Origin: Pseudomonadota bacterium
Lineage (GTDB): Bacteria > Pseudomonadota > Gammaproteobacteria > JAJDOJ01
NCBI GenBank assembly: GCA_034722015.1
Contig: JAYENI010000088.1
Span: forward strand, 30,574-94,573
Direction of reading: 5' to 3'
Length of the DNA stretch: 64,000 nucleotides
Position 1 is the stretch's first letter, and each line of letters opens with the position of its first letter. The position numbers and the translations under genes are program-made. Positions 9,913-63,201 of the stretch are shown here, in pieces. The notes beneath the pieces are model-generated. The model searched no databases. It was not told the origin of the DNA and was given only the letters and a program-made list of their open reading frames with translations.

Positions 9913-10818
9913 CTATGGGTTTTCGCGAACCCGCAGAAAGGAGGCGTGCCTGGGATTTCCGTTACCGGTCAGACCATAATACTTGAACGTGATGGTGGAA
10001 CCGACCGGGGGCGGGTCCCGGCGCTGTGCATCGGTGAAGCCGGTGCCGACGCGGATACGCCGGTTACGCCAATCCAGCAGCAGCGCGCCCATCATCCCCT
10101 CGAATTTGCCACTGCCCGGCAGGTGCGCTATGACAATGCCCTCATCGTCGAGGTACGGTTTGAGTTTGAGCAGGTCGGACGACCGGCCCGCTGCGTAGTA
10201 CGAGTCACCCCTGTGTAGCATCAGACCCTCGCCACCTTTGGCGGTGACCTCTTCGAGCATCCGCGCCAGCATTGCCTCGTCCAGGACCCTGGTTTGTGGC
10301 ACGGAACGAAGATACGGGGAATCTGCCTTTCCCACGATGCTTGCGAGGGTCTCAAGGCGTTCGTCGAAGGTGGTCCGGAAACCCGGCAGGTCGAACGCCA
10401 TGAAACGGATGCCGCGCCACTCCGATTCGACCGGTTTCATTCTTCGCACGGCGGCTGACAGGGCCTCGAATGTCCCCCTGCCCATCCAGAGTTCGCCGTC
10501 AAGCGCGATGGCGGGGAATCCTTCGGTGAACCAATCGGGTGAGGCGATTTCATGTCCATTGCGCGAGAGCAGCCGGTCACCGTCCCACAAGGCCCGTACC
10601 CCGTCGTACTTTTCGCTCACCCGGTATTCCCGAAGGTCGATGCCCTTCTCGTAGACCTCCGCCAGTAACAGGGGCGGCACGGGACTTGCGGGCAACGGGA
10701 TCGCGGCGGTGCTGGCCAACAGAAGAAATGTTACCAAGGGGCGCGTGCCGTATTTCGACGCGCTTCGCACCCTCGTGCCGCCACCGGCCAGAACGTTTTC
10801 CCGCCTTGCAGGTTTCAT
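9913..10818 (-). CDS. minimal ATP-dependent DNA ligase, Lig E type, with N-terminal signal peptide (predicted periplasmic)
   Basis: Motif I SEKYDGVRALWDG (KxDG adenylation lysine), motif III-like IALDGELW, motif IV EGLMLH, motif V LLKLKP; hydrophobic leader RPLVTFLLLASTAAIPLPA; about 300 aa with no extra domains. Confidence 0.8.
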   Translation of the reverse strand: MKPARRENVLAGGGTRVRSASKYGTRPLVTFLLLASTAAIPLPASPVPPLLLAEVYEKGIDLREYRVSEKYDGVRALWDGDRLLSRNGHEIASPDWFTEGFPAIALDGELWMGRGTFEALSAAVRRMKPVESEWRGIRFMAFDLPGFRTTFDERLETLASIVGKADSPYLRSVPQTRVLDEAMLARMLEEVTAKGGEGLMLHRGDSYYAAGRSSDLLKLKPYLDDEGIVIAHLPGSGKFEGMMGALLLDWRNRRIRVGTGFTDAQRRDPPPVGSTITFKYYGLTGNGNPRHASFLRVRENP

Positions 10819-19665: not shown

Positions 19666-19866
19666 CGGTTCTCCTTGTAGATTGTCTCGTGGTGTCCCGC
19701 AGGGACCGGCGGGACTCGGTTGATTGACGCCCGGAGATCGAGCAGGTGACCGGTACCGGGAGGCGGCGAGTGTCAGGCGACGAAAACACTCGCGGCGAAG
19801 CGGACATGTCGGTCCATCGCTCGCCGGGGCGCGCCACGGGCCAGGGCGCAGTCTATCATCATCCCG

Positions 19867-20148
19867 TCAGCGTTCCACTGATTCGTCCCCGGCGGTGCCG
19901 GTGCCAGACGGGGTGAATTCGTGTTCGGTGCCGTCGGCAGACAGCATCCTGACCTTCTGTTCGGCGGTCTTCAGCTCGGCTTCGCAAGCTTGAACCAGGC
20001 GAATACCGAGTTCGAAGGACTCGAGTGATTTTTCCAGGGAGAACTCTCCCTGTTCGAGTTGTCCCACCAACTTTTCCAGTGCCTCGAGTTTGCCTTCGAA
20101 GCCCCGTGGCATGGAGGGCGAATTTTTCGATGTTTTTTCCTGCGCCAC
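19867..20148 (-). CDS. xseB: exodeoxyribonuclease VII small subunit
   Basis: FEGKLEALEKLVGQLEQGEFSLEKSLESFELGIRLVQACEAELKTAEQKV matches XseB; start is either GTG at 20148 or ATG at 20112. Confidence 0.8.
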   Translation of the reverse strand: MAQEKTSKNSPSMPRGFEGKLEALEKLVGQLEQGEFSLEKSLESFELGIRLVQACEAELKTAEQKVRMLSADGTEHEFTPSGTGTAGDESVER

Positions 20149-20258
20149 TATATAATCCCCGCGGTTGCGATTTCGTACCCGGCAAAACATTAACACGGCG
20201 TCATTTTCAATGGACCCGCATGTCATGTTGACAAGCAACCCGCCTTAACTTAGAGTTC

Positions 20259-20276
20259 AATTCTAGGTTTAGAATT
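20259..20276. promoter_or_regulatory. 7-4-7 perfect inverted repeat AATTCTA-GGTT-TAGAATT in the rubrerythrin promoter region; candidate repressor operator (PerR/Fur/Rrf2-like)
   Basis: Read directly. It lies between a TTGACA hexamer (20228-20233) plus a TAGAGT -10-like element and the rubrerythrin start (20329), overlapping the -10 and the transcription start region. Confidence 0.4.
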
Positions 20277-20328
20277 AGTCTAAATCGATGATGTCCGATC
20301 TTCATCCACTTCCCGGAGGTAACTGAAT

Positions 20329-20748
20329 ATGTCACTGAAAGGCTCAAAAACCGAGCAGGCTCTCAAGGACGCATTTGCTGGCGAGTCACAGGCCAATCGC
20401 CGCTACCTGTATTTCGCATCCAAGGCCGACGTCGAGGGTTACAACGATGTAGCCGCCGTGTTCCGTTCCACTGCCGAGGGCGAGACCGGGCATGCACATG
20501 GTCACCTGGAATATCTCGAGGAATGCGGTGACCCCGCCACGGGGCTGCCTTTCGGGCCGACCGACGAGAATCTGAAGACCGCGATCGCCGGTGAGACCCA
20601 TGAGTACACCGACATGTATCCCGGCATGGCCAAGGGCGCGCGCGACGAAGGTTTCGACGAGATTGCCGACTGGTTCGAGACCCTGGCAAAGGCCGAACGG
20701 TCCCACGCCAATCGTTTCCAGAAAGCTCTGAATACTCTCGGCGACTAA
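20329..20748 (+). CDS. rubrerythrin-family diiron protein (ferritin-like domain only, no rubredoxin domain)
   Basis: 139 aa with three E-x-x-H diiron motifs ([25 protein letters not shown]). Confidence 0.8.
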
Positions 20749-20761
20749 ACCCGCGTCGGAC

Positions 20762-20796
20762 GGGAAACGGGGCCGCTGAACCGGCCCCGTGTTCCC
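20762..20796. terminator. strong GC hairpin (gggaaacggggccg-ctgaa-cggccccgtgttccc) downstream of the rubrerythrin gene
   Basis: about 14-bp stem with one bulge, read directly; no clean U-tract, so it may be a partial terminator or attenuator before the CCG Fe-S gene. Confidence 0.4.
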
Positions 20797-20912
20797 CCGA
20801 TCTTTCCGGGCTACGGTTCCGGGACCTTGACAACCGGTTACCGCGCCTTTGGCATCGCTGGTATCGTATGCGTGGCGACGTTGTATCGACTAGATCAGAG
20901 GCTTTAGAGACT

Positions 20913-22259
20913 ATGGCGACACCGACCGAGGGGCAGCGTGAAGGCAGCCTGGAGGCGCCTACACGACACCCGCTGGATTGGCGCAATCCGGAGTTCTTTG
21001 ACGAGGGCTCGTTGTTTTCGGAACTGGAGCGTATCTACGAAATATGCCACGGTTGTCGTCGTTGCGTCAGTCTGTGCAACTCTTTCCCGACGCTGTTCGA
21101 TCTCATCGACGAGTCGGAGACCATGGAAGTCGATGGCGTCGACAAGAAAGACTACTGGCAGGTTGTGGATCACTGCTACCTGTGTGACCTCTGTTATCTG
21201 ACGAAGTGTCCCTACGTGCCCCCTCACAAGTGGAATGTCGACTTTCCCCACCTGATGCTGAGGGCCAAGGCGGTCAAATATAAAAAGGGTGACGTCAAGC
21301 GTCGCGACAGGATACTTACCTCGACGGATACCGTCGGGCGGCTTGCGGGCATTCCGGTCGTGGTCCAGGCGGTCAATGCCGCCAATCACAACGGCGCGTC
21401 GCGCAAGCTGCTGCGGAAGACACTCGGCGTACATCCCGATGCGATCTTGCCCGAGTACCATTCGAATACCGCGCGAAAGCGCCTGTCGGGGAATCTCGGT
21501 TCTGCCGCCAACCCCGTACCGTCGGGCAGGACGCGGGGGCGTGTCGCCCTGTTCGCGACCTGTTACGGCGACCGCAACGAGCCGCAGGTAGTCGAGGATC
21601 TGGCCAGGGTTTTCGAACACAACGCAATCGAAGTGACGCTGGCTGACAAGGAACGATGTTGCGGCATGCCCAAGCTGGAACTGGGGGACCTGGAAGCAGT
21701 CGAGGTGGCAAAGGAGGCCAACATACCGGTGCTGGCGCGCATGATCGACGAAGGCTGGGACATCGTGGCGACTGTTCCGTCCTGCGTGCTGATGTTCAAG
21801 CAGGAACTCCCGCTGATGTTCCCCGACGATGAGGAAGTCGCCAGGGTTCGGGATCATTTTTTCGACCCGTTCGAGTACCTGATGATCCGTCATGCCGACG
21901 GCAAGCTGAACACCGACTTCAAGAACGCGCTGGGCAAGGTCGCGTATCACGCTGCGTGTCACCTGAGGGTCCAGAAAATCGGGCTAAAAACCCGGGACCT
22001 GCTCAATCTCGTCCCGGGCACGGAACTCGACGTGATCGAACGCTGTTCCGGACATGACGGGACCTATGCCGTCAAAGAGGAGTATCACGAGATATCGATG
22101 AAGATCTGCCGCCCGGTGGTCAATCGTGTGAAGAAGGCGCAGGCCGACCACTACTCGAGTGACTGCCCGATGGCCGGGCACCAGATCGAGAATGGTCTGA
22201 GGGACGGCAGCACACCCGAACATCCACTGTCGCTGCTGCGGCAGGCCTACGGGATTTGA
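20913..22259 (+). CDS. Fe-S oxidoreductase, HdrD/GlpC/GlcF-like: two 4Fe-4S ferredoxin motifs plus two CCG domains
   Basis: CHGCRRCVSLC and CYLCDLCYLTKCP ferredoxin motifs; CCG domains (..ATCYGDRN...ERCCGMP and ..AACHLRVQ...ERCSGHDG). Confidence 0.8.
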   Translation: MATPTEGQREGSLEAPTRHPLDWRNPEFFDEGSLFSELERIYEICHGCRRCVSLCNSFPTLFDLIDESETMEVDGVDKKDYWQVVDHCYLCDLCYLTKCPYVPPHKWNVDFPHLMLRAKAVKYKKGDVKRRDRILTSTDTVGRLAGIPVVVQAVNAANHNGASRKLLRKTLGVHPDAILPEYHSNTARKRLSGNLGSAANPVPSGRTRGRVALFATCYGDRNEPQVVEDLARVFEHNAIEVTLADKERCCGMPKLELGDLEAVEVAKEANIPVLARMIDEGWDIVATVPSCVLMFKQELPLMFPDDEEVARVRDHFFDPFEYLMIRHADGKLNTDFKNALGKVAYHAACHLRVQKIGLKTRDLLNLVPGTELDVIERCSGHDGTYAVKEEYHEISMKICRPVVNRVKKAQADHYSSDCPMAGHQIENGLRDGSTPEHPLSLLRQAYGI

Positions 22260-22279
22260 TCAAACCAGGGACATGACAG

Positions 22280-22573
22280 ATGGCAAACGAAGGCTTCCAT
22301 GAATCGATCGACGAACTCTCGGACGAAACGCGCGACATGCATCGTGCGATTGTCTCCCTGATGGAAGAACTGGAGGCCGTGGACTGGTACAACCAGCGGG
22401 TCGACGCCTGTCGGGACGAGGAGCTGCGCGCCATTCTCGCCCATAATCGTGACGAAGAGAAAGAGCACGCGGCCATGGTGCTGGAATGGATCCGGCGGCG
22501 CGATCCGTCCATGGACAAGGAGTTGAAGGATTATCTGTTTACCGAAGGTTCCATCGCCTCACTGGAGCACTAG
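22280..22573 (+). CDS. EncFtn-like (encapsulated-ferritin-like) mini-ferritin, about 97 aa
   Basis: HRAIVSLMEELEAVDWYNQRVDACRDEELRAILAHNRDEEKEHAAMVLEWIRRRD closely resembles the metal-binding core of the Rhodospirillum rubrum EncFtn as I recall it (the E...EEKEH motif); no encapsulin shell gene is adjacent. Confidence 0.6.
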   Translation: MANEGFHESIDELSDETRDMHRAIVSLMEELEAVDWYNQRVDACRDEELRAILAHNRDEEKEHAAMVLEWIRRRDPSMDKELKDYLFTEGSIASLEH

Positions 22574-22838
22574 TGCTCTATCCAGGCGATAATTACGGAT
22601 TCAGCGTTCCCCTGGTGTTTCGCAGTAAGGCGCAGCGTGCAGGCAATGGTCATTCCCTTGTCAAACGCTGCAACGCGGCTGCGGGACACCAGGGGAGCGC
22701 CCGGAGGGTTAGCTTGTCATCGCCCATGGACGGTGTTGCGCCGCTTGGAAAGGGAGCGGCCATTCCCGGCGAGGCGCGCCTTGCCATGCGCGCTGGCAAG
22801 CTTAACTGAACTCGCAATTATCACCTGGATAGAGCACT
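22572..22838. mobile_element. MITE-like element, copy A1 (about 267 bp) with 14-15-bp terminal inverted repeats (a)gtgctctatccagg / cctggatagagcac(t), flanked by TA...TA
   Basis: Inverted termini read directly; a second, shorter copy with the same termini is at 37728-37850; the left TA of the flank forms part of the TAG stop of the upstream gene. Confidence 0.6.
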
Positions 22839-22852
22839 AAGGACTGATACCG

Positions 22853-23437
22853 ATGGACAAGTTGAAACGCGAAGACCTCTATTCCCTGGAAAAGTATTCC
22901 GAGATACGGTCCGAATTCCGAAAGGGGGTTATCGCGCACAAGAAGGTCCGGCTGGTGCATGTCGGTCCCAATGTCACGATACATTTCGAAGACCAGCTGG
23001 TCATGCAATACCAGATTCAGGAAATGCTGCGCGCGGAGAGGATTTTCGAGGGTGAGGCGATCCAGGAAGAGCTGGATGCCTACAACCCGCTGATCCCGGA
23101 CGGGTCCAACTGGAAGGCAACGCTGATGATCGAGTTCGATGACGAGGACGAACGTCGGCGTCAGCTGGCCCAGCTCAAGGGTCTTGAGGCCGCGACCTGG
23201 GTTCGCGTCGGGACGCAGGACAAGGTTCACCCGATTGCGAACGAGGACCTGGAGCGCGAGACCGAGGAAAAGACCTCCTCGGTCCATTTCCTGCGGTTCG
23301 AACTGACGCCCGAAATGGTGGCCCAGGCAAAGGGTGGGGTCCCGATCGGCGTCGGTATCGATCACCCGAAATACGAGCATGAGATAGTCGCGGTGTCCGA
23401 GCCCGTACGGACTTCCCTGGTCAACGACCTCGACTGA
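22853..23437 (+). CDS. uncharacterized conserved protein (194 aa; possibly a DUF3501-type partner of the rubrerythrin / CCG Fe-S genes)
   Basis: ORF with good coding appearance, no catalytic motif recognized. The DUF3501 assignment is from memory of that family co-occurring with rubrerythrin and HdrD-like genes; unverified. Confidence 0.5.
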   Translation: MDKLKREDLYSLEKYSEIRSEFRKGVIAHKKVRLVHVGPNVTIHFEDQLVMQYQIQEMLRAERIFEGEAIQEELDAYNPLIPDGSNWKATLMIEFDDEDERRRQLAQLKGLEAATWVRVGTQDKVHPIANEDLERETEEKTSSVHFLRFELTPEMVAQAKGGVPIGVGIDHPKYEHEIVAVSEPVRTSLVNDLD

Positions 23438-23472
23438 TCCCGAAGCCATCCGGCATCCGCCGGACGGATACG

Positions 23473-25437
23473 CTATTTCCCGCCGCCCAGTCGTTTCTCC
23501 AGCAGCTCGCCCAGGCTCGCGATCGTTGGATGATCGAACAGGTCCGTGACGTCGATGGTCTCGGGAAAGGCTATCTCGATGCCTTCGTGTATCCGGGCCA
23601 GTTCGAGTGAACTCGTTCCGATGTCGAACAGGTTGTCTGCGATGCCCACGTCCTTTCCTTCCAGAACCTCGTCGCAGACGGCCTTGAGCTGGCCCTCGAT
23701 CTTCGTCAGGTCCTGGTCGTAACCTTCCTTCGGGGCCAGCGAGATTTCCTCGAGTCGGGCCAGGACATCGGCGAAATCACCGCCGCGGTAGGCTTCGACC
23801 AGCAAGTGCCGCTGGACCTTGCCACTGGTGGTCTTCGGGATCCGCTTCACCGGGATGATGTGCAGGGCCTCGAGACCGGTGTGTGCATTGAGCACGGCAT
23901 GGACTTCGCGGGCGATCCCCGTCACGTCTTGGACGTTCCCCTTATGCAGCAGGAAGACGAGTAACTCGTCGCTGTCACTCCCGTGCGGACGCCATGCCGC
24001 CGTCACGATCTTTCCGAGCTCGATCCCTGTTTCCCGCTCCACGATGGACTCGAGGTCGTGCGGGTAATAGTTTTGCCCGTTGGCGAAGATGATTTCCTTG
24101 GATCGCCCGGTCACTACCAGACCGCAATCCGTCGTGAATCCAAGGTCGCCCGTATCGAGCCATCCGTCCGGTGTGAACGCCGCGTGGTTCGCCTCGTCAT
24201 TACGGAAATAGCCCCTTGTCACGTTTGCGCCACGGATCTGGATATGGCCCACGCTCCGCTCGGGCAGGGTCGTGCCCGACGCGTCGCAGATCCGCATCTC
24301 GCAGCCCGCGACCGGCTGGCCCGTGCAAACCAGCGACAATGCCGCGGGATCGTCCCCGTTTACGATTTGCACGCCGGTCCCGGTCTGCAAGCTGTCGCGC
24401 TCGACGCTGACCGGCGTGATGCCCGTGCCCACCGCGGGGAAAGTGACCGCAAGGCTGGCCTCGGCCAGGCCGTAGACGGGAAACATGCACGACGGGTCGA
24501 GACCGTGCGGCGCCAGCGCTTCGAGGAACTCCCGGCACAGGTCGACAGAAATAGGTTCAGCACCGTTGATGATCAGGCGTATACGATTCAGGTTCAGTTC
24601 CCCGGGTGGATGCTTCCCAAGCGCCCGGAGTAGGTGCTTTAAACCGAAATTGGGCGAGCAGGTCACGCTGACGCCCAGCTCGGCGGACTTCTCGAGCCAC
24701 AGCAACGGGCGGCGGACAAACAGGTCGGTGGGCATCAGGCAGTGGTCCGCACCGGTGGCCAGGGGTGTGAGATGAAACCCGATCAGCCCCATATCGTGTG
24801 TCAGTGGCATCCAGCTCAGCCCCCTGTCCTGCCCGCTCACCCGGATGCCGGCGGCGATGGCATGAATGTTGGCGAGAATATTTTCGTGACTCAGCACCAC
24901 GCCCTTGGGCTCGCTGGTCGATCCTGATGAGAACTGGATGAAGGCGGTGTCCGCGGGGGCGGCGCTGTGCAGACGCCCCTGAGCGCCAGACAACACTACG
25001 TTTCCCGACTCGATAGTGCGTGATGACAACACCTCCGGGACCGCATCTTCTCCCGCCTCGTTTTCCAGGGTGCCGAGCCGTTTCAGGGTACTGGCGTCGG
25101 TGAAGAGCCAGGGGTCGGACAGCATCCGGAATATACGAATCAGCTTGAATCTGTGCTCGTCGCTGATGCCAGGCGCGACGGGTACGGGTACGATCCCGCC
25201 CAGGATGCAGGCCCAGAACGCGTAGAGGAATGGTTCGTTGTCGTTGACATGTATAATCAATTCGCTCCCCGGCCCTAGTCCCCGGGTCTGCAGTGCGTAC
25301 AGCAGGGCGCTTGCGCGGGTATGGAGTGCTGCGATCGGCATTTCCTGCGACCGTTCCGCGCCCGTCAACAGAATGATCCGGCCCTCCCCCCCGGCCCTTT
25401 CCGCCAGTGCTTGCGTCAGTGTTTTGAAGTTTGTCAT
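23473..25437 (-). CDS. fatty acyl-AMP ligase (AMP-binding adenylation domain) fused to a C-terminal acyl/peptidyl carrier protein domain (FAAL-ACP)
   Basis: AMP-binding motifs FSSGSTSEPKGV, YGLAEAS, DTGDLG, and KTTSGKVQR; C-terminal PP-binding motif DNLFDIGTSSLELARI (serine attachment site); start at 25437 (MTNFKT). The upstream extension in the track has no homology. Confidence 0.85.
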   Translation of the reverse strand: MTNFKTLTQALAERAGGEGRIILLTGAERSQEMPIAALHTRASALLYALQTRGLGPGSELIIHVNDNEPFLYAFWACILGGIVPVPVAPGISDEHRFKLIRIFRMLSDPWLFTDASTLKRLGTLENEAGEDAVPEVLSSRTIESGNVVLSGAQGRLHSAAPADTAFIQFSSGSTSEPKGVVLSHENILANIHAIAAGIRVSGQDRGLSWMPLTHDMGLIGFHLTPLATGADHCLMPTDLFVRRPLLWLEKSAELGVSVTCSPNFGLKHLLRALGKHPPGELNLNRIRLIINGAEPISVDLCREFLEALAPHGLDPSCMFPVYGLAEASLAVTFPAVGTGITPVSVERDSLQTGTGVQIVNGDDPAALSLVCTGQPVAGCEMRICDASGTTLPERSVGHIQIRGANVTRGYFRNDEANHAAFTPDGWLDTGDLGFTTDCGLVVTGRSKEIIFANGQNYYPHDLESIVERETGIELGKIVTAAWRPHGSDSDELLVFLLHKGNVQDVTGIAREVHAVLNAHTGLEALHIIPVKRIPKTTSGKVQRHLLVEAYRGGDFADVLARLEEISLAPKEGYDQDLTKIEGQLKAVCDEVLEGKDVGIADNLFDIGTSSLELARIHEGIEIAFPETIDVTDLFDHPTIASLGELLEKRLGGGK

Positions 25438-25642
25438 CTTTACGTGAGAGCGGAATCGGTAGTTTGAGGCCGTCGAGGGTGGTCGGGTATCGCGGCCTGC
25501 CTGGGCACGTACGGAGCCGTGAACGCGGGGCCCGCGCGCAGGTGCGGTTTTCAACGGGAATATTTTGTGCCTGGCAAGTATACGACGATGACAGGAGGTG
25601 TCGCGAGCGGCGGGCCTGGCCAGATGACGGGGCGGTCTGTCC

Positions 25643-26344
25643 GTGGCTGAGATGGCGGACGACATCGGGTTGCCGTTACACAAGCGATTGCTCTTTCCTG
25701 TCCTCGCGCCGCTTGCCGCCTGGTTGCTGAGGTTTTTCTGGTTCGTTTGCAGGGTACGGCGAATCGAGGGCGAGGAACATCTCGAGGCGCTGAATGCGGG
25801 GGGCGCCATCATCCCCTGTCACTGGCACCAGCGGCATATCTTCTGTGCGTACTATCTGGTCCGAAAACTGTCCGGCAAATACAGGATCGGATACCTTGTG
25901 AGTCCCTCCAAGGACGGGGACCTCGGGGCCATGATCCTGAGGCGACTCGGAGTGATACCGATCCGTGGATCGGCGAACCGCACGGGCGCCCAGGCCATCC
26001 GCGACATGTACCTCTGCCTCTCTCGGGACGGGGTCTCGCCCGTACTGACTCCGGATGGTTCCGAGGGGCCGATCTACAAGTTCAAGCCGGGGCCGGTGAT
26101 GCTGGCGCAATTGTCCGGGGCGCCGCTGGTCCCGATGAGCTACGCCGCGCGCAGCGCGTGGACGCTCAATTCCTGGGACCGGTTCATGATCCCGAAACCG
26201 TTCACCCGCGTGGCCATCGTGATCGGCCGGCCCCGCTACGCGGAAAAGACCGGCAGGCTGGACGGGACCGGTTCCCTGCAGGAGCAGATGGAACAGGAGC
26301 TGAACCGGCTGGGGATGGAGGCGGAGGCGGCCCTGGACGCCTGA
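25643..26344 (+). CDS. DUF374-type lysophospholipid-acyltransferase-superfamily protein
   Basis: 233 aa; the N-terminal hydrophobic segment and the GG.IIPCHWHQRHIF...GSANRTGAQAIRDM region look like DUF374/LPLAT; divergent from FAAL-ACP. Confidence 0.65.
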   Translation: MAEMADDIGLPLHKRLLFPVLAPLAAWLLRFFWFVCRVRRIEGEEHLEALNAGGAIIPCHWHQRHIFCAYYLVRKLSGKYRIGYLVSPSKDGDLGAMILRRLGVIPIRGSANRTGAQAIRDMYLCLSRDGVSPVLTPDGSEGPIYKFKPGPVMLAQLSGAPLVPMSYAARSAWTLNSWDRFMIPKPFTRVAIVIGRPRYAEKTGRLDGTGSLQEQMEQELNRLGMEAEAALDA

Positions 26345-62606: not shown

Positions 62607-62730
62607 TGATTCCGATGTTGTGCCGTGGCAGGTATCATCGGGCCGTCGTGGGTTGATCGGATGACAACCGGTGGATCGTGACCGGCTACGGTCATTTCAG
62701 TTACCAACGGGAAACAGGAACGGAGGAAAA

Positions 62731-63201
62731 ATGGCCATAGAAGAAGGGAAGGCCGCGCCACTGTTTACCTTGTCAGATACGCACGGTGACAAGGTGACGT
62801 TGAAGTCGTTTCGCGAGTGGGACGTCATCGTCTATTTCTATCCACGCGACGATACGCCGGGCTGCACGAAGGAGGCCTGCGGTTTTCGCGATCTATGGGG
62901 TGAAATCGAGGCGCTGGGCGCGGTCGTGCTGGGAATCTCGCCTGACGGCGCCGACTCGCATGCCAGGTTCGCCGGAAAGTACGACCTGCCGTTCACGTTG
63001 CTTTCCGATCCGGACAGAAAGGTGATGACGAAGTATGGCGCCTACGGGGAAAAGATGATGTACGGCAAGAAGACCATGGGTGTGATCCGGTCGACCGTTT
63101 GGATCGGGCCGAACGGCAAGGTGGTCAGGCACTGGCGACGTGTCCCCAAGGCGGCAGACCATCCCGCGAAGGTGCTGGAGGCGATTAAGGCCGGCGCCTG
63201 A
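62731..63201 (+). CDS. bcp: thiol peroxidase Bcp (peroxiredoxin Q)
   Basis: FYPRDDTPGCTKEAC peroxidatic Cys motif; GGAGGA ribosome-binding site 8 bp upstream. Confidence 0.9.
   Translation: MAIEEGKAAPLFTLSDTHGDKVTLKSFREWDVIVYFYPRDDTPGCTKEACGFRDLWGEIEALGAVVLGISPDGADSHARFAGKYDLPFTLLSDPDRKVMTKYGAYGEKMMYGKKTMGVIRSTVWIGPNGKVVRHWRRVPKAADHPAKVLEAIKAGA

What the first reader, a model, noticed from the sequence alone, without database searches (positions are those of the whole stretch)
20228..23437. Conserved-looking iron/peroxide redox module: rubrerythrin + HdrD/GlpC-like CCG Fe-S oxidoreductase + EncFtn-like mini-ferritin + uncharacterized protein, behind a palindromic operator
Four co-directional genes (20329-23437) combine a diiron rubrerythrin, a two-CCG-domain heterodisulfide-reductase-like Fe-S protein (which could re-reduce a thiol or quinone-type electron donor), an EncFtn-like ferroxidase-fold protein and a 194-aa protein with no recognizable motif. 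Upstream sits a TTGACA...TAGAGT promoter overlapped by a perfect 7-4-7 palindrome AATTCTAGGTTTAGAATT. A strong hairpin after the rubrerythrin gene (20762-20796) could allow differential expression. I know of no characterized pathway that links an HdrD-like protein to a rubrerythrin and a mini-ferritin, so this looks like a candidate dedicated peroxide or iron detoxification electron-transfer chain.
Basis: partly seen in the sequence, partly recalled or inferred. Interest (0 to 1): 0.6.

Follow-up and report, generated by a model that had tools for sequence, protein, structure and literature searches.

The report
Rubrerythrin peroxide-defence operon with extra mini-ferritin
This is a member of the already described three-gene "aerobic-type rubrerythrin" peroxide-defence operon. 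It carries an extra shell-less mini-ferritin gene, sits behind an iron-regulator-type operator that is conserved across many bacteria, and was recently split by a small mobile element.

Summary
They are a 139-aa rubrerythrin without a rubredoxin domain, a GlpC/HdrD-like Fe-S protein with two CCG domains, a 97-aa EncFtn-like protein, and a DUF3501 protein.

The Rbr / Fe-S oxidoreductase (RFO) / DUF3501 trio is not unknown. It was described in 2016 as the "aerobic-type rubrerythrin system" (PMC5114695), but its electron path has never been shown experimentally.

Three things go beyond that paper:
1. The EncFtn-like gene is a short, targeting-peptide-less "s-FLP" (best structure 3K6C). It lies between RFO and DUF3501 in 14 of 80 species-level relatives, and beside DUF3501 alone in one more.
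2. This 7-3-7 box resembles the Irr "iron control element". Of 43 such sites in 1 Mb of related loci, 41 lie just upstream of rbr. Irr-like Fur-family genes sit next to the cluster in some Gammaproteobacteria.
3. A 268-bp MITE-like element (22571-22838) was inserted at the EncFtn stop codon. An empty site exists in a 97%-identical relative.

A GC-rich hairpin after rbr is conserved in position. Overall this is a new variant of a known kind, of moderate interest.

The parts
19867..20112 (-). xseB (exonuclease VII small subunit), first gene of the divergent xseB-ispA-dxs unit. Context only; it bounds the 216-nt control region.
   Evidence: ORF, with the real start taken at MPRGFEG. The same divergent neighbours (PF02609, polyprenyl_synt, DXP synthase) occur in L011 and L106 and in 26-28 of the related loci.
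20228..20256 (+). Sigma-70-type promoter: TTGACA (20228-20233), 17-nt spacer, TAGAGT (20251-20256).
   Evidence: Found. TTGACA is invariant and a TAGAGT/TACAGT/TAAAGT-like -10 recurs at the same distance from the operator in orthologous loci.
20259..20276 (.). It is real but not conserved. Its right arm is the left half of the conserved operator.
   Evidence: (0 of 95 loci).
20268..20284 (.). Conserved ICE-like operator TTTAGAA-TTA-GTCTAAA (7-3-7). It starts 12 nt after the -10, so it covers the expected transcription start.
   Evidence: Only match in the window, 0 expected. 41 of 43 sites scoring at least 11/12 in 1.0 Mb of loci lie within 250 nt upstream of rbr. 17/17 identical in L106 and L023. 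The ICE consensus TTTAGAA-N3-TTCTAAA is given in PMC1698941.
20329..20748 (+). Aerobic-type rubrerythrin (139 aa, no rubredoxin domain). RBS GGAGG at 20315-20319.
   Evidence: PF02915 4e-30. Best solved relatives are B. pseudomallei Rbr 9ONM/4DI0 at 3.5e-74 and sulerythrin 1J30 at 8e-51.
20762..20795 (+). GC-rich hairpin after rbr, with a weak T tract. Probably a partial terminator or an mRNA-stabilising stem.
   Evidence: Position conserved in 54/69 loci, 11 of them with a T-rich tail.
20913..22259 (+). [quoted passage not shown] It has two ferredoxin-type Cys motifs (CHGCRRCVSLC..P, CYLCDLCYLTKCP) and two CCG domains. The longest ORF starts at 20868.
   Evidence: PF02754 with 2 stretches, plus Fer4_8/Fer4_17. 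Best NCBIfam match is GlpC PRK11168 at 237.6 bits, below the cut-off of 278. Start inferred. No solved relative by sequence.
22280..22573 (+). Short EncFtn-like ferritin (s-FLP, 97 aa) without a targeting peptide. Ferroxidase-centre residues E30, E60, H63 and Y37 are conserved. The last two ancestral residues (KD) were cut off by the insertion.
   Evidence: PF22277 4e-44 and TIGR04535 136.8 bits, matching only model positions 1-91 of 114. Best structure is 3K6C NE0167 at 4.5e-45, then R. rubrum EncFtn 5DA5. Closest homologues end in ...LEHKD.
22571..22838 (.). 268-bp MITE-like insertion with 34-nt terminal inverted repeats (22571-22604 / 22806-22839, 88%) and nested internal inverted repeats.
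   Evidence: RNA fold -162 kcal/mol, z -10. Other copies of about 100 nt, about 160 nt and more than 240 nt lie in unrelated contigs L096-L099. Empty site in L100 and a 5-nt gap in L106.
22839..22847 (+). AAGGACTGA, the remnant of the ancestral end of the EncFtn gene (Lys-Asp-stop). It holds the AAGGA ribosome-binding site of DUF3501.
   Evidence: Alignment to the empty site in L100.
22853..23437 (+). DUF3501 protein (194 aa), a helical plus beta-sandwich fold with no conserved cysteines.

Best explanation
The locus is an operon for the aerobic-type rubrerythrin system, extended by a shell-less mini-ferritin.

**Enzymes**
- Rbr is the di-iron peroxidase that reduces H2O2 or organic hydroperoxides. 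This activity is shown for homologues, not for this protein.
- Rbr has no rubredoxin domain. RFO, with two [4Fe-4S]-type motifs and two CCG domains, is inferred to be its dedicated reductase. The electron donor is unidentified; quinol or a low-molecular-weight thiol are the plausible candidates.
- DUF3501 has no cofactor motif and no enzyme-like fold. It is inferred to be a docking or adaptor subunit between RFO and its di-iron partner.
- The short EncFtn-like protein keeps its ferroxidase-centre residues but has neither a targeting peptide nor a neighbouring shell gene. It is inferred to work outside an encapsulin. It may oxidise Fe2+ that would otherwise drive Fenton chemistry, or it may act as a second di-iron acceptor served by DUF3501/RFO.

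**Regulation**
- Transcription starts at a TTGACA/TAGAGT promoter.
- It is inferred to be repressed by an Irr-like Fur-family protein bound to the ICE-like box over the transcription start. On that model the iron-rich system is made when iron is sufficient and/or peroxide is present.
- A hairpin after rbr probably makes Rbr more abundant than its partners.

**Recent change**
- A MITE-like element recently landed on the EncFtn stop codon. It broke the 5-nt coupling to DUF3501.
For: **Identity of the proteins**.

**Conserved gene order**
- The Rbr-RFO-DUF3501 order is nearly universal in 80 species-level loci.
- This matches the published three-gene system (PMC5114695; PMC7050145).

**Function of homologues**
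- The H. thermophilus homologue Fpx is an NADPH/FNR-dependent peroxidase needed for aerobic growth (PMC3317640).
- B. pseudomallei Rbr is part of the oxidative stress response, and its operon partners were proposed as the rubredoxin replacement (PMC12154734).
- An OxyR-like LysR gene is adjacent in 10 loci. No other redox partner is conserved in the flanks.

**EncFtn-like gene**
- It lies in the cluster in 14/80 loci, plus L011, L100 and L106.
- It pairs with DUF3501 alone in L086.
- The ancestral gap to DUF3501 is 5 nt.
- It lacks a targeting peptide and has no shell neighbour.

**Operator**.
- Irr-like genes lie next to the cluster in L056, L067, L068 and L102/L103. Their best NCBIfam hits are IrrA/Irr.
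- L102 has both the regulator gene and the box.
- ICE over a transcription start means repression in B. japonicum and R. sphaeroides (PMC3413700).

**Hairpin**.

**MITE-like element**.
Against: - No biochemical evidence exists that RFO or DUF3501 reduce Rbr.
- The only tested donor for a homologue is FNR/NADPH, in an organism where RFO is unlinked from rbr.
- Thermoproteales have Rbr and DUF3501 without RFO (PMC5114695).
- Close EncFtn-like homologues (86% identity) stand alone in unrelated contexts. The link of the EncFtn-like gene to the cluster is therefore facultative.
- No Fur-family gene lies in the 64-kb window.
- The Irr-like hits are below NCBIfam equivalog cut-offs.
- Only 34 of 71 orthologous promoters carry the box. 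Others carry ATAG-N7-CTAT (OxyR-type) motifs instead.
- The window hairpin lacks a proper U-tract.
Confidence: 0.6

Rival explanations
1. The EncFtn-like protein is a true encapsulin cargo. On this reading its short C-terminus is an unrecognised binding sequence, the shell gene lies elsewhere in the genome, and its place in the Rbr operon reflects only co-regulation of iron and peroxide defences.
For: - It scores above the curated cut-off of the NCBIfam 'encapsulin-associated ferritin-like protein' model (136.8 against 125).
- The homologous 3K6C forms the same decamer as encapsulated EncFtn, and the review PMC11202242 leaves encapsulation of s-FLPs open.
- EncFtn alone cannot store iron (established knowledge from work on R. 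rubrum EncFtn).
Against: - The match stops at model position 91 of 114, so the tail that carries the targeting peptide is absent.
- No Linocin/encapsulin family was listed next to any EncFtn-like gene in the loci examined with Pfam tables.
- None was found among the window ORFs of shell-like size.
- Thousands of homologues are 94-101 aa long.
- The ancestral gene overlapped the ribosome-binding site of DUF3501.
- The pair DUF3501 plus s-FLP persists without Rbr/RFO in L086.
Confidence: 0.12
2. The conserved TTTAGA-N5-TCTAAA box is bound not by an Irr-like protein but by another regulator, such as a different Fur paralogue like PerR or an unrelated family. It would then respond mainly to peroxide rather than to iron or haem.
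For: - No regulator gene lies in the window.
- Irr-like genes are adjacent in only a few loci.
- The Irr-like proteins also score on PerR models.
- OxyR-type regulators and motifs accompany the same cluster in other lineages, which shows that peroxide control is common for it.
- Rodionov et al. found no Irr/ICE outside Alphaproteobacteria in 2006.
Against: - The box has the 7-3-7 geometry and 13 of the 14 defined bases of the ICE consensus. Classical Fur, PerR and Zur boxes are 7-1-7 (established knowledge).
- The two sites not upstream of rbr are upstream of a di-haem cytochrome c peroxidase that lies beside an Irr-like gene. This is the same minimal Irr regulon predicted in some Alphaproteobacteria.
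- Irr-like proteins are widespread in gamma- and betaproteobacterial assemblies.
Confidence: 0.25
3. The trio is not primarily a peroxidase. The di-iron protein with RFO and DUF3501 would instead perform another redox task, for example O2 reduction, or iron delivery and repair for Fe-S or di-iron enzymes. The EncFtn-like protein would then be part of an iron-handling function rather than a peroxide-handling one.
For: - B. pseudomallei Rbr binds several metals promiscuously, and sulerythrin activities depend on the metal (PMC12154734).
- The operator is of an iron-regulator type.
- A ferroxidase gene has repeatedly joined the cluster.
Against: - Peroxidase activity and an aerobic growth requirement were shown for the homologue Fpx.
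- The cluster sits next to OxyR-type regulators in 10 loci.
Confidence: 0.15

Closest known systems
Aerobic-type rubrerythrin system: Rbr + RFO + DUF3501 (Cardenas, Quatrini & Holmes 2016, PMC5114695). Also seen in mitochondria of Andalucia and other protists (PMC7050145).
   Same: - Rubredoxin-less 139-aa Rbr, 85-93% identical to orthologues.
- A GlpC-like CCG Fe-S oxidoreductase and DUF3501 in the same order and on the same strand.
- The same proposed role: an electron supply that replaces the rubredoxin domain.
   Different: - An extra EncFtn-like gene lies between RFO and DUF3501. That paper's figure legend lists only a 'HYP' hypothetical protein, and no ferritin-like partner is discussed in the text I searched.
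- An ICE-like operator is present.
- A MITE-like element is inserted.
Ferriperoxin (Fpx) of Hydrogenobacter thermophilus, sulerythrin (1J30), and B. pseudomallei Rbr (4DI0/9ONM)
   Same: The same domain-swapped di-iron four-helix family. Fpx is a proven peroxidase.
   Different: Fpx was assayed with FNR/NADPH. In that organism RFO is unlinked from rbr. No RFO or DUF3501 dependence has been tested for any of these proteins.
Encapsulated ferritin EncFtn (R. rubrum 5DA5) and the s-FLP class (N. europaea NE0167, 3K6C)
   Same: The two-helix EncFtn fold and the E/E/H ferroxidase-centre residues. The closest structure is the s-FLP 3K6C.
   Different: No C-terminal targeting peptide and no adjacent shell gene. 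Here the gene is embedded in, and ancestrally coupled to, a rubrerythrin operon.
Irr / iron control element (ICE, TTTAGAA-N3-TTCTAAA) regulon of Alphaproteobacteria (PMC1698941, PMC3413700)
   Same: - 7-3-7 palindrome with 13/14 defined bases.
- It overlaps the promoter or transcription start, as at the repressed genes blr7895 (rubrerythrin-like) and bfr.
- The targets, rubrerythrin and cytochrome c peroxidase, match the minimal Irr regulons.
   Different: - It is found here in Gamma- and Betaproteobacteria, with a C/G preference at the inner positions (TTTAGAC-N3-GTCTAAA).
- The regulator is only Irr-like (below equivalog cut-offs) and was not found in this window.
GlpC (anaerobic glycerol-3-phosphate dehydrogenase subunit C) and HdrD
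   Same: An N-terminal 2x[4Fe-4S] ferredoxin-like part followed by two CCG domains.
   Different: - It scores below the GlpC cut-off (237.6 against 278).
- There are no glpAB or hdrE neighbours.
- The second CCG motif reads CSG.

Membership tests
Aerobic-type rubrerythrin system (Rbr-RFO-DUF3501) | Rubrerythrin of about 140 aa lacking the C-terminal rubredoxin domain | tested here: met
   139 aa with only PF02915/PF00210. Best solved relatives are BpRbr and sulerythrin.
Aerobic-type rubrerythrin system (Rbr-RFO-DUF3501) | Co-localised COG0247-type Fe-S oxidoreductase with CCG domains (RFO) | tested here: met
   PF02754 with two stretches plus Fer4. The gene lies directly downstream of rbr and is orthologous (57-77% identity) to the RFO of 70+ loci.
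Aerobic-type rubrerythrin system (Rbr-RFO-DUF3501) | Co-localised DUF3501 (PF12007) gene | tested here: met
   1e-71. Same strand, last gene of the cluster.
Aerobic-type rubrerythrin system (Rbr-RFO-DUF3501) | Peroxidase activity that depends on the partner proteins | not testable with these tools
   Only homologue data exist (Fpx with FNR/NADPH, PMC3317640). No partner dependence has been shown anywhere.
Encapsulated ferritin (Family 1 encapsulin cargo) | EncFtn two-helix fold with E/E/H ferroxidase-centre residues | tested here: met
   PF22277 4e-44. Alignment to 5DA5 and 3K6C places E30, E60, H63 and Y37 at the known positions.
Encapsulated ferritin (Family 1 encapsulin cargo) | C-terminal targeting peptide after a disordered linker | tested here: not met
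   The protein ends about 8 residues after the last helix. The TIGR04535 match covers model positions 1-91 of 114. Relatives are 94-101 aa.
Encapsulated ferritin (Family 1 encapsulin cargo) | Encapsulin shell gene adjacent to the cargo gene | tested here: not met
   The neighbours are RFO and DUF3501. No shell family appears in the Pfam tables of related loci or among window ORFs of 230-310 aa. The rest of the genome is not available.
s-FLP (short EncFtn-like, 3K6C type) | About 95-aa EncFtn-like protein without a targeting peptide, closest to NE0167 | tested here: met
   3K6C is the best solved relative, 4.5e-45 over residues 1-93. The class is defined in PMC11202242.
GlpC (anaerobic G3P dehydrogenase subunit C) | Score above the curated equivalog cut-off, and a glpA/glpB context | tested here: not met
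   237.6 bits against a cut-off of 278, and 163.6 against 279.9. No glpAB genes nearby.
Irr/ICE regulon | 7-3-7 palindrome matching TTTAGAA-N3-TTCTAAA in the promoter region | tested here: met
   TTTAGAATTAGTCTAAA at 20268-20284, 13/14 defined bases. Unique in the window and conserved upstream of rbr.
Irr/ICE regulon | An irr gene in the same genome | not testable with these tools
- Irr-like genes are adjacent to the cluster in L056, L067, L068 and L102/L103.
Irr/ICE regulon | Regulator meets the Irr equivalog threshold and binds the box | tested here: inconclusive
   The adjacent regulators of related loci hit IrrA/Irr best, at 116-138 bits. This is below the cut-offs of 150/170. Binding is not testable.
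MITE (non-autonomous inverted-repeat element) | Terminal inverted repeats, small size, no transposase, several copies at unrelated sites, and an empty site in a relative | tested here: met
   - 34-nt TIRs at 88%.
- 268 bp long.
- Copies in four unrelated contigs.
- Empty site in L100 and L106.
MITE (non-autonomous inverted-repeat element) | Target-site duplication | tested here: inconclusive
   Comparison with the empty site gives no clean duplication. A TA duplication was considered but is not supported by the other copies.

The most novel reading that the evidence does not exclude
Two linked readings remain open.

1. DUF3501 may be a general docking or reduction adaptor for ferritin-like di-iron proteins. 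The shell-less EncFtn-like decamer would then be a second client of the RFO/DUF3501 reductase. That would make it a catalytic Fe2+/peroxide scavenger that needs no encapsulin, and it would give the large and unexplained s-FLP class its first functional context.

2. An Irr-type regulator with an ICE-type box may be widespread outside Alphaproteobacteria, with the aerobic-type rubrerythrin operon and cytochrome c peroxidase as its core regulon.
Probability: 0.3. Interest if true: 0.6.

Novelty: new variant of a known kind. Interest (0 to 1): 0.42.

Why it matters
- **Rubrerythrin system.** It is widespread in aerobic bacteria, archaea and even mitochondria, yet its electron path is still unproven. 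This compact four-gene version, with its clear promoter and operator, is a convenient system for reconstitution.
- **Short EncFtn-like proteins.** The repeated recruitment of a targeting-peptide-less EncFtn next to DUF3501 gives a testable context for the abundant short EncFtn-like proteins. Whether those proteins are ever encapsulated is an open point in the encapsulin field.
- **Regulation.** The ICE-like box upstream of rbr in many Gamma- and Betaproteobacteria, together with Irr-like genes beside the cluster, suggests that Irr-type control is not confined to Alphaproteobacteria.

Tried and rejected
- **Rfam.** A scan of 19800-23700 at E up to 1 gave only a chance snoRNA hit. The hairpin and the inserted element are therefore not known RNA families.
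It was searched in 95 loci and found in none.
- **Fur homologue.** A tblastn search with E. coli Fur found nothing in the window.
- **Encapsulin.** Ten window ORFs of suitable size gave no shell family.
- **RFO structure.** A sequence search of the PDB gave no solved relative.
- **TA target-site duplication.** I considered an IS630/mariner-like TA duplication for the inserted element. I dropped it after aligning the empty site and inspecting other copies.
- **Literature.**
  - A search for the box sequence returned only CRISPR/primer papers.
  - A search for Irr, ICE and rubrerythrin in Gamma- or Betaproteobacteria returned nothing.
- **Origin of the window.** A look-up of the window's own EncFtn protein on contigs found nothing on record. 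The assembly and the rest of the genome could not be reached.
- **Second operator.** I looked for a second full ICE site between -35 and -10, as in L011 and L016. Only a degenerate remnant (cTTAGAGT) is present in the window.

Full report
**1. Observation**

The four co-directional ORFs exist as described.
- ORF1 (20329-20748, 139 aa) is a rubrerythrin with no rubredoxin domain (PF02915, 4e-30).
- ORF2 (20868-22259) carries two CCG stretches and ferredoxin-type Fe-S motifs.
- ORF3 (22280-22573, 97 aa) matches EncFtn-like PF22277 at 4e-44.
- ORF4 (22853-23437, 194 aa) is DUF3501 (1e-71), so it is not motif-less.

NCBIfam places ORF2 nearest GlpC but below the curated cut-off (237.6 against 278). 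It places ORF3 just above the cut-off of the encapsulin-associated ferritin model, but matching only model positions 1-91 of 114.

Homologues of ORF2 align from about residue 15, and the syntenic orthologue is called at 448 aa. The true start is therefore probably ATG 20913.

The promoter-like TTGACA-17-TAGAGT site is found at 20228-20256. As a single consensus hit it is not above chance.

The hairpin at 20762-20795 is real. Its MFE is -37.6 kcal/mol with z -3.3.

**2. The core module is already described**

A full-text search for DUF3501 led to Cardenas, Quatrini and Holmes 2016 (PMC5114695). They defined the "aerobic-type" rubrerythrin lineage and its two co-localised, co-occurring partners. 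[quoted passage not shown] All three occurred together in 185 genomes. The authors proposed that RFO compensates for the lost rubredoxin domain.

The same trio was later found, with mitochondrial targeting, in Andalucia and other protists (PMC7050145). A 2025 preprint on Burkholderia pseudomallei Rbr repeats the idea that the operon partners are the missing electron-transfer partner (PMC12154734).

The closest solved structures agree with this picture:
- BpRbr 9ONM/4DI0 (3.5e-74) and sulerythrin (8e-51) for ORF1.
- 3FJV, an "uncharacterized novel protein" of B. pseudomallei, for DUF3501 (1.7e-55).

A homologue, ferriperoxin of Hydrogenobacter thermophilus, is a proven peroxidase with NADPH/FNR as donor in vitro. 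It is needed for aerobic growth (PMC3317640). No paper I could find shows electron transfer from RFO or DUF3501.

**3. Neighbourhood conservation**

I scanned one genome per species with a DUF3501 alignment. This gave 592 relatives, of which 80 loci were fetched.

A tblastn search with the four window proteins shows the order Rbr-RFO-DUF3501 in nearly all loci that are long enough.

An EncFtn-like gene lies between RFO and DUF3501 in 14 of the 80. These include Thioalkalivibrio, Chromatiaceae, a lucinid-clam symbiont, a Burkholderiales MAG and several gammaproteobacterial MAGs. The same arrangement is found in the syntenic metagenomic relatives L011, L100 and L106.

In a Thiomargarita MAG (L086), DUF3501 and the EncFtn-like gene sit together with no Rbr or RFO within 6 kb.

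On the other hand, EncFtn-like proteins that are 86% identical stand alone in unrelated contexts. One lies beside a LysR regulator and a peroxiredoxin-glutaredoxin gene.

Clustering of flanking ORFs found no further conserved redox partner. It found only the divergent xseB-ispA-dxs genes (26-28 loci) and an OxyR-like LysR gene adjacent in 10 loci.

**4. The mini-ferritin**

Its best solved relative is 3K6C (NE0167 of Nitrosomonas europaea, 95 aa, 4.5e-45). R. rubrum EncFtn 5DA5 follows. The ferroxidase-centre residues align (E30, E60, H63, with Y37).

A 2024 review calls this class s-FLP: short, no targeting peptide, decameric. It states that it is unclear whether these proteins are encapsulated (PMC11202242). 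The review does not mention a rubrerythrin context.

More than 8000 homologues of 94-101 aa were found.

No shell gene is adjacent here or in any examined locus. No shell-like family was found among window ORFs of suitable size. The rest of the genome could not be examined.

**5. The operator**

I listed perfect inverted repeats in the 220 nt upstream of rbr in 71 loci. This revealed a recurrent TTTAGA-N5-TCTAAA element, most often TTTAGAC-N3-GTCTAAA.

With at least 11 of 12 defined bases required, 43 sites occur in 1.0 Mb of held sequence. Of these, 41 lie within 250 nt upstream of rbr, in 34 of 71 loci. The other two lie upstream of a di-haem cytochrome c peroxidase gene that sits beside a Fur-family gene next to the cluster.

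In the window the site is TTTAGAATTAGTCTAAA at 20268-20284. It is unique in 64 kb, with none expected.

That palindrome is absent from all 95 loci then held and is not conserved in the closest syntenic relative. In that relative, TTGACA and the 17-nt box are identical to the window.

The promoter architecture is conserved: TTGACA, about 17 nt, a TAGAGT-like -10, then the box. Loci with two boxes place the first box between -35 and -10. This conservation is what supports the promoter call.

The box has the 7-3-7 geometry and 13 of the 14 defined bases of the Irr "iron control element", TTTAGAA-N3-TTCTAAA (PMC1698941). That paper reported no Irr/ICE outside Alphaproteobacteria. It also noted minimal Irr regulons consisting of a cytochrome c peroxidase or a rubrerythrin-like gene.

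The Fur-family genes adjacent to the cluster in L056, L067 and L068 hit NCBIfam IrrA/Irr best. Their scores are 116-138 bits, below the cut-offs of 150/170 but far above Fur and Zur. They carry the HHH(H) motif seen directly in their sequences.

Homologues of these proteins number over a thousand. They include proteins from Ectothiorhodospira, Thiobacillaceae and Burkholderiales assemblies.

L102 has the Irr-like gene, a LysR gene and the cluster together, with TTAGAATAATTCTAA about 85 nt upstream of rbr.

An ICE placed over the transcription start acts in repression at blr7895 and bfr in B. japonicum (PMC3413700).

I therefore infer repression by an Irr-like regulator encoded elsewhere in this genome. 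No Fur homologue lies in the window. Loci without the box often carry ATAG-N7-CTAT motifs and an adjacent OxyR-like gene instead.

**6. The hairpin**

In 65 of 70 loci the first 90 nt after the rbr stop codon fold to -20 kcal/mol or lower. An uninterrupted GC-rich stem of at least 7 bp is present in 54 of 69 loci, and 11 of those have a T-rich tail.

The stems differ in sequence but keep their position. This fits a partial terminator or a stabilising 3' stem that raises Rbr relative to its partners. The window version has a poor T tract, so its strength as a terminator is uncertain.

**7. The insertion**

The 280-nt gap between ORF3 and ORF4 is bounded by 34-nt inverted repeats (22571-22604 and 22806-22839) and contains nested repeats. 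As RNA it folds to -162 kcal/mol, z -10.

The terminal repeat occurs once in the window. It also occurs in four unrelated metagenomic contigs, as elements of about 100 nt, about 160 nt and more than 240 nt with different flanks.

L100 encodes a 97%-identical EncFtn-like protein and shows the empty site GAGCAC|AAGGACTGA...ATG. L106 has a 5-nt gap at the same place.

The element therefore entered at the last codons of the gene. The window protein ends ...LEH with a TAG supplied by the element, whereas relatives end ...LEHKD. The remnant AAGGACTGA at 22839-22847 still carries the AAGGA ribosome-binding site, 5 nt before the DUF3501 start.

The insertion is recent. It shows that the ancestral EncFtn-like and DUF3501 genes were tightly coupled. 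Whether DUF3501 is still co-transcribed through this structure is unknown.

**8. DUF3501**

The alignment shows many invariant charged and aromatic residues but no conserved cysteine.

Together with the reported DUF3501-RFO fusions in Nitrosomonas (PMC5114695), this fits a docking subunit rather than a redox enzyme. This is inference.

**9. Verdict**

- The interpretation matches the published hypothesis for a known system rather than a new pathway.
- The locus is a new variant of a known kind.
- Three points appear not to be covered in the literature I could search: the recurrent s-FLP insertion coupled to DUF3501, the ICE-like operator with Irr-like regulators outside Alphaproteobacteria, and the MITE-like insertion.
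- The mechanistic steps (donor to RFO, then DUF3501-mediated docking, then the di-iron site) remain inferred.

Noticed in passing
window 22571-22838: A 268-bp MITE-like element with 34-nt terminal inverted repeats is inserted at the stop codon of the EncFtn-like gene. Other copies of different length occur in contigs JAAUYE010179094, JAAUYE010172016, JAAUYF010075062 and JAAUYF010100102 (L096-L099). No clean target-site duplication and no parent transposase were identified.
   Followed up: yes
L056 1713-3550 and L067 (lucinid symbiont MAGs): An Irr-like Fur-family gene lies between the rbr cluster and a di-haem cytochrome c peroxidase gene. A perfect ICE-like box lies upstream of the peroxidase gene, and an 11/12 box lies upstream of rbr. 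This looks like a compact two-target regulon in a gammaproteobacterium.
   Followed up: partly
L086 6001-6950 (Thiomargarita MAG): DUF3501 and the short EncFtn-like gene form a pair between grpE and a HAD hydrolase gene. No rubrerythrin or RFO lies within 6 kb.
   Followed up: partly
L022, L037, L046, L059, L067, L078 (upstream of rbr): These loci carry ATAG-N7-CTAT palindromes (LysR/OxyR-type) instead of, or besides, the ICE-like box. An OxyR-like LysR gene is adjacent to the cluster in 10 of the 80 loci. The same operon therefore appears to have switched regulators between lineages.
   Followed up: partly
L014 4945-7148: An EncFtn-like gene 86% identical to the window's stands alone. It is flanked by a divergent LysR regulator gene and a peroxiredoxin-glutaredoxin fusion gene, which suggests an oxidative-stress role independent of the rubrerythrin cluster.
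   Followed up: no
window 23473-26344: - Downstream on the minus strand is a 779-aa ORF. Its syntenic counterpart in L106 is called at 660 aa and has AMP-binding and PP-binding (carrier) domains.
- A DUF374 gene and radA follow. The same neighbours occur in L106.
- The long N-terminal extension of the window ORF is probably an artefact of taking the first start codon.
   Followed up: no
window 62671-63201: A Bcp/PrxQ-type peroxiredoxin (AhpC-TSA, 2e-36) is encoded 39 kb from the rubrerythrin operon. No ICE-like box lies near it.
   Followed up: no
window 9913-10818: A 301-aa ORF with ATP-dependent DNA ligase and OB domains and a signal-like N-terminus. It resembles the periplasmic LigA-independent 'Lig E' type ligases.
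   Followed up: no
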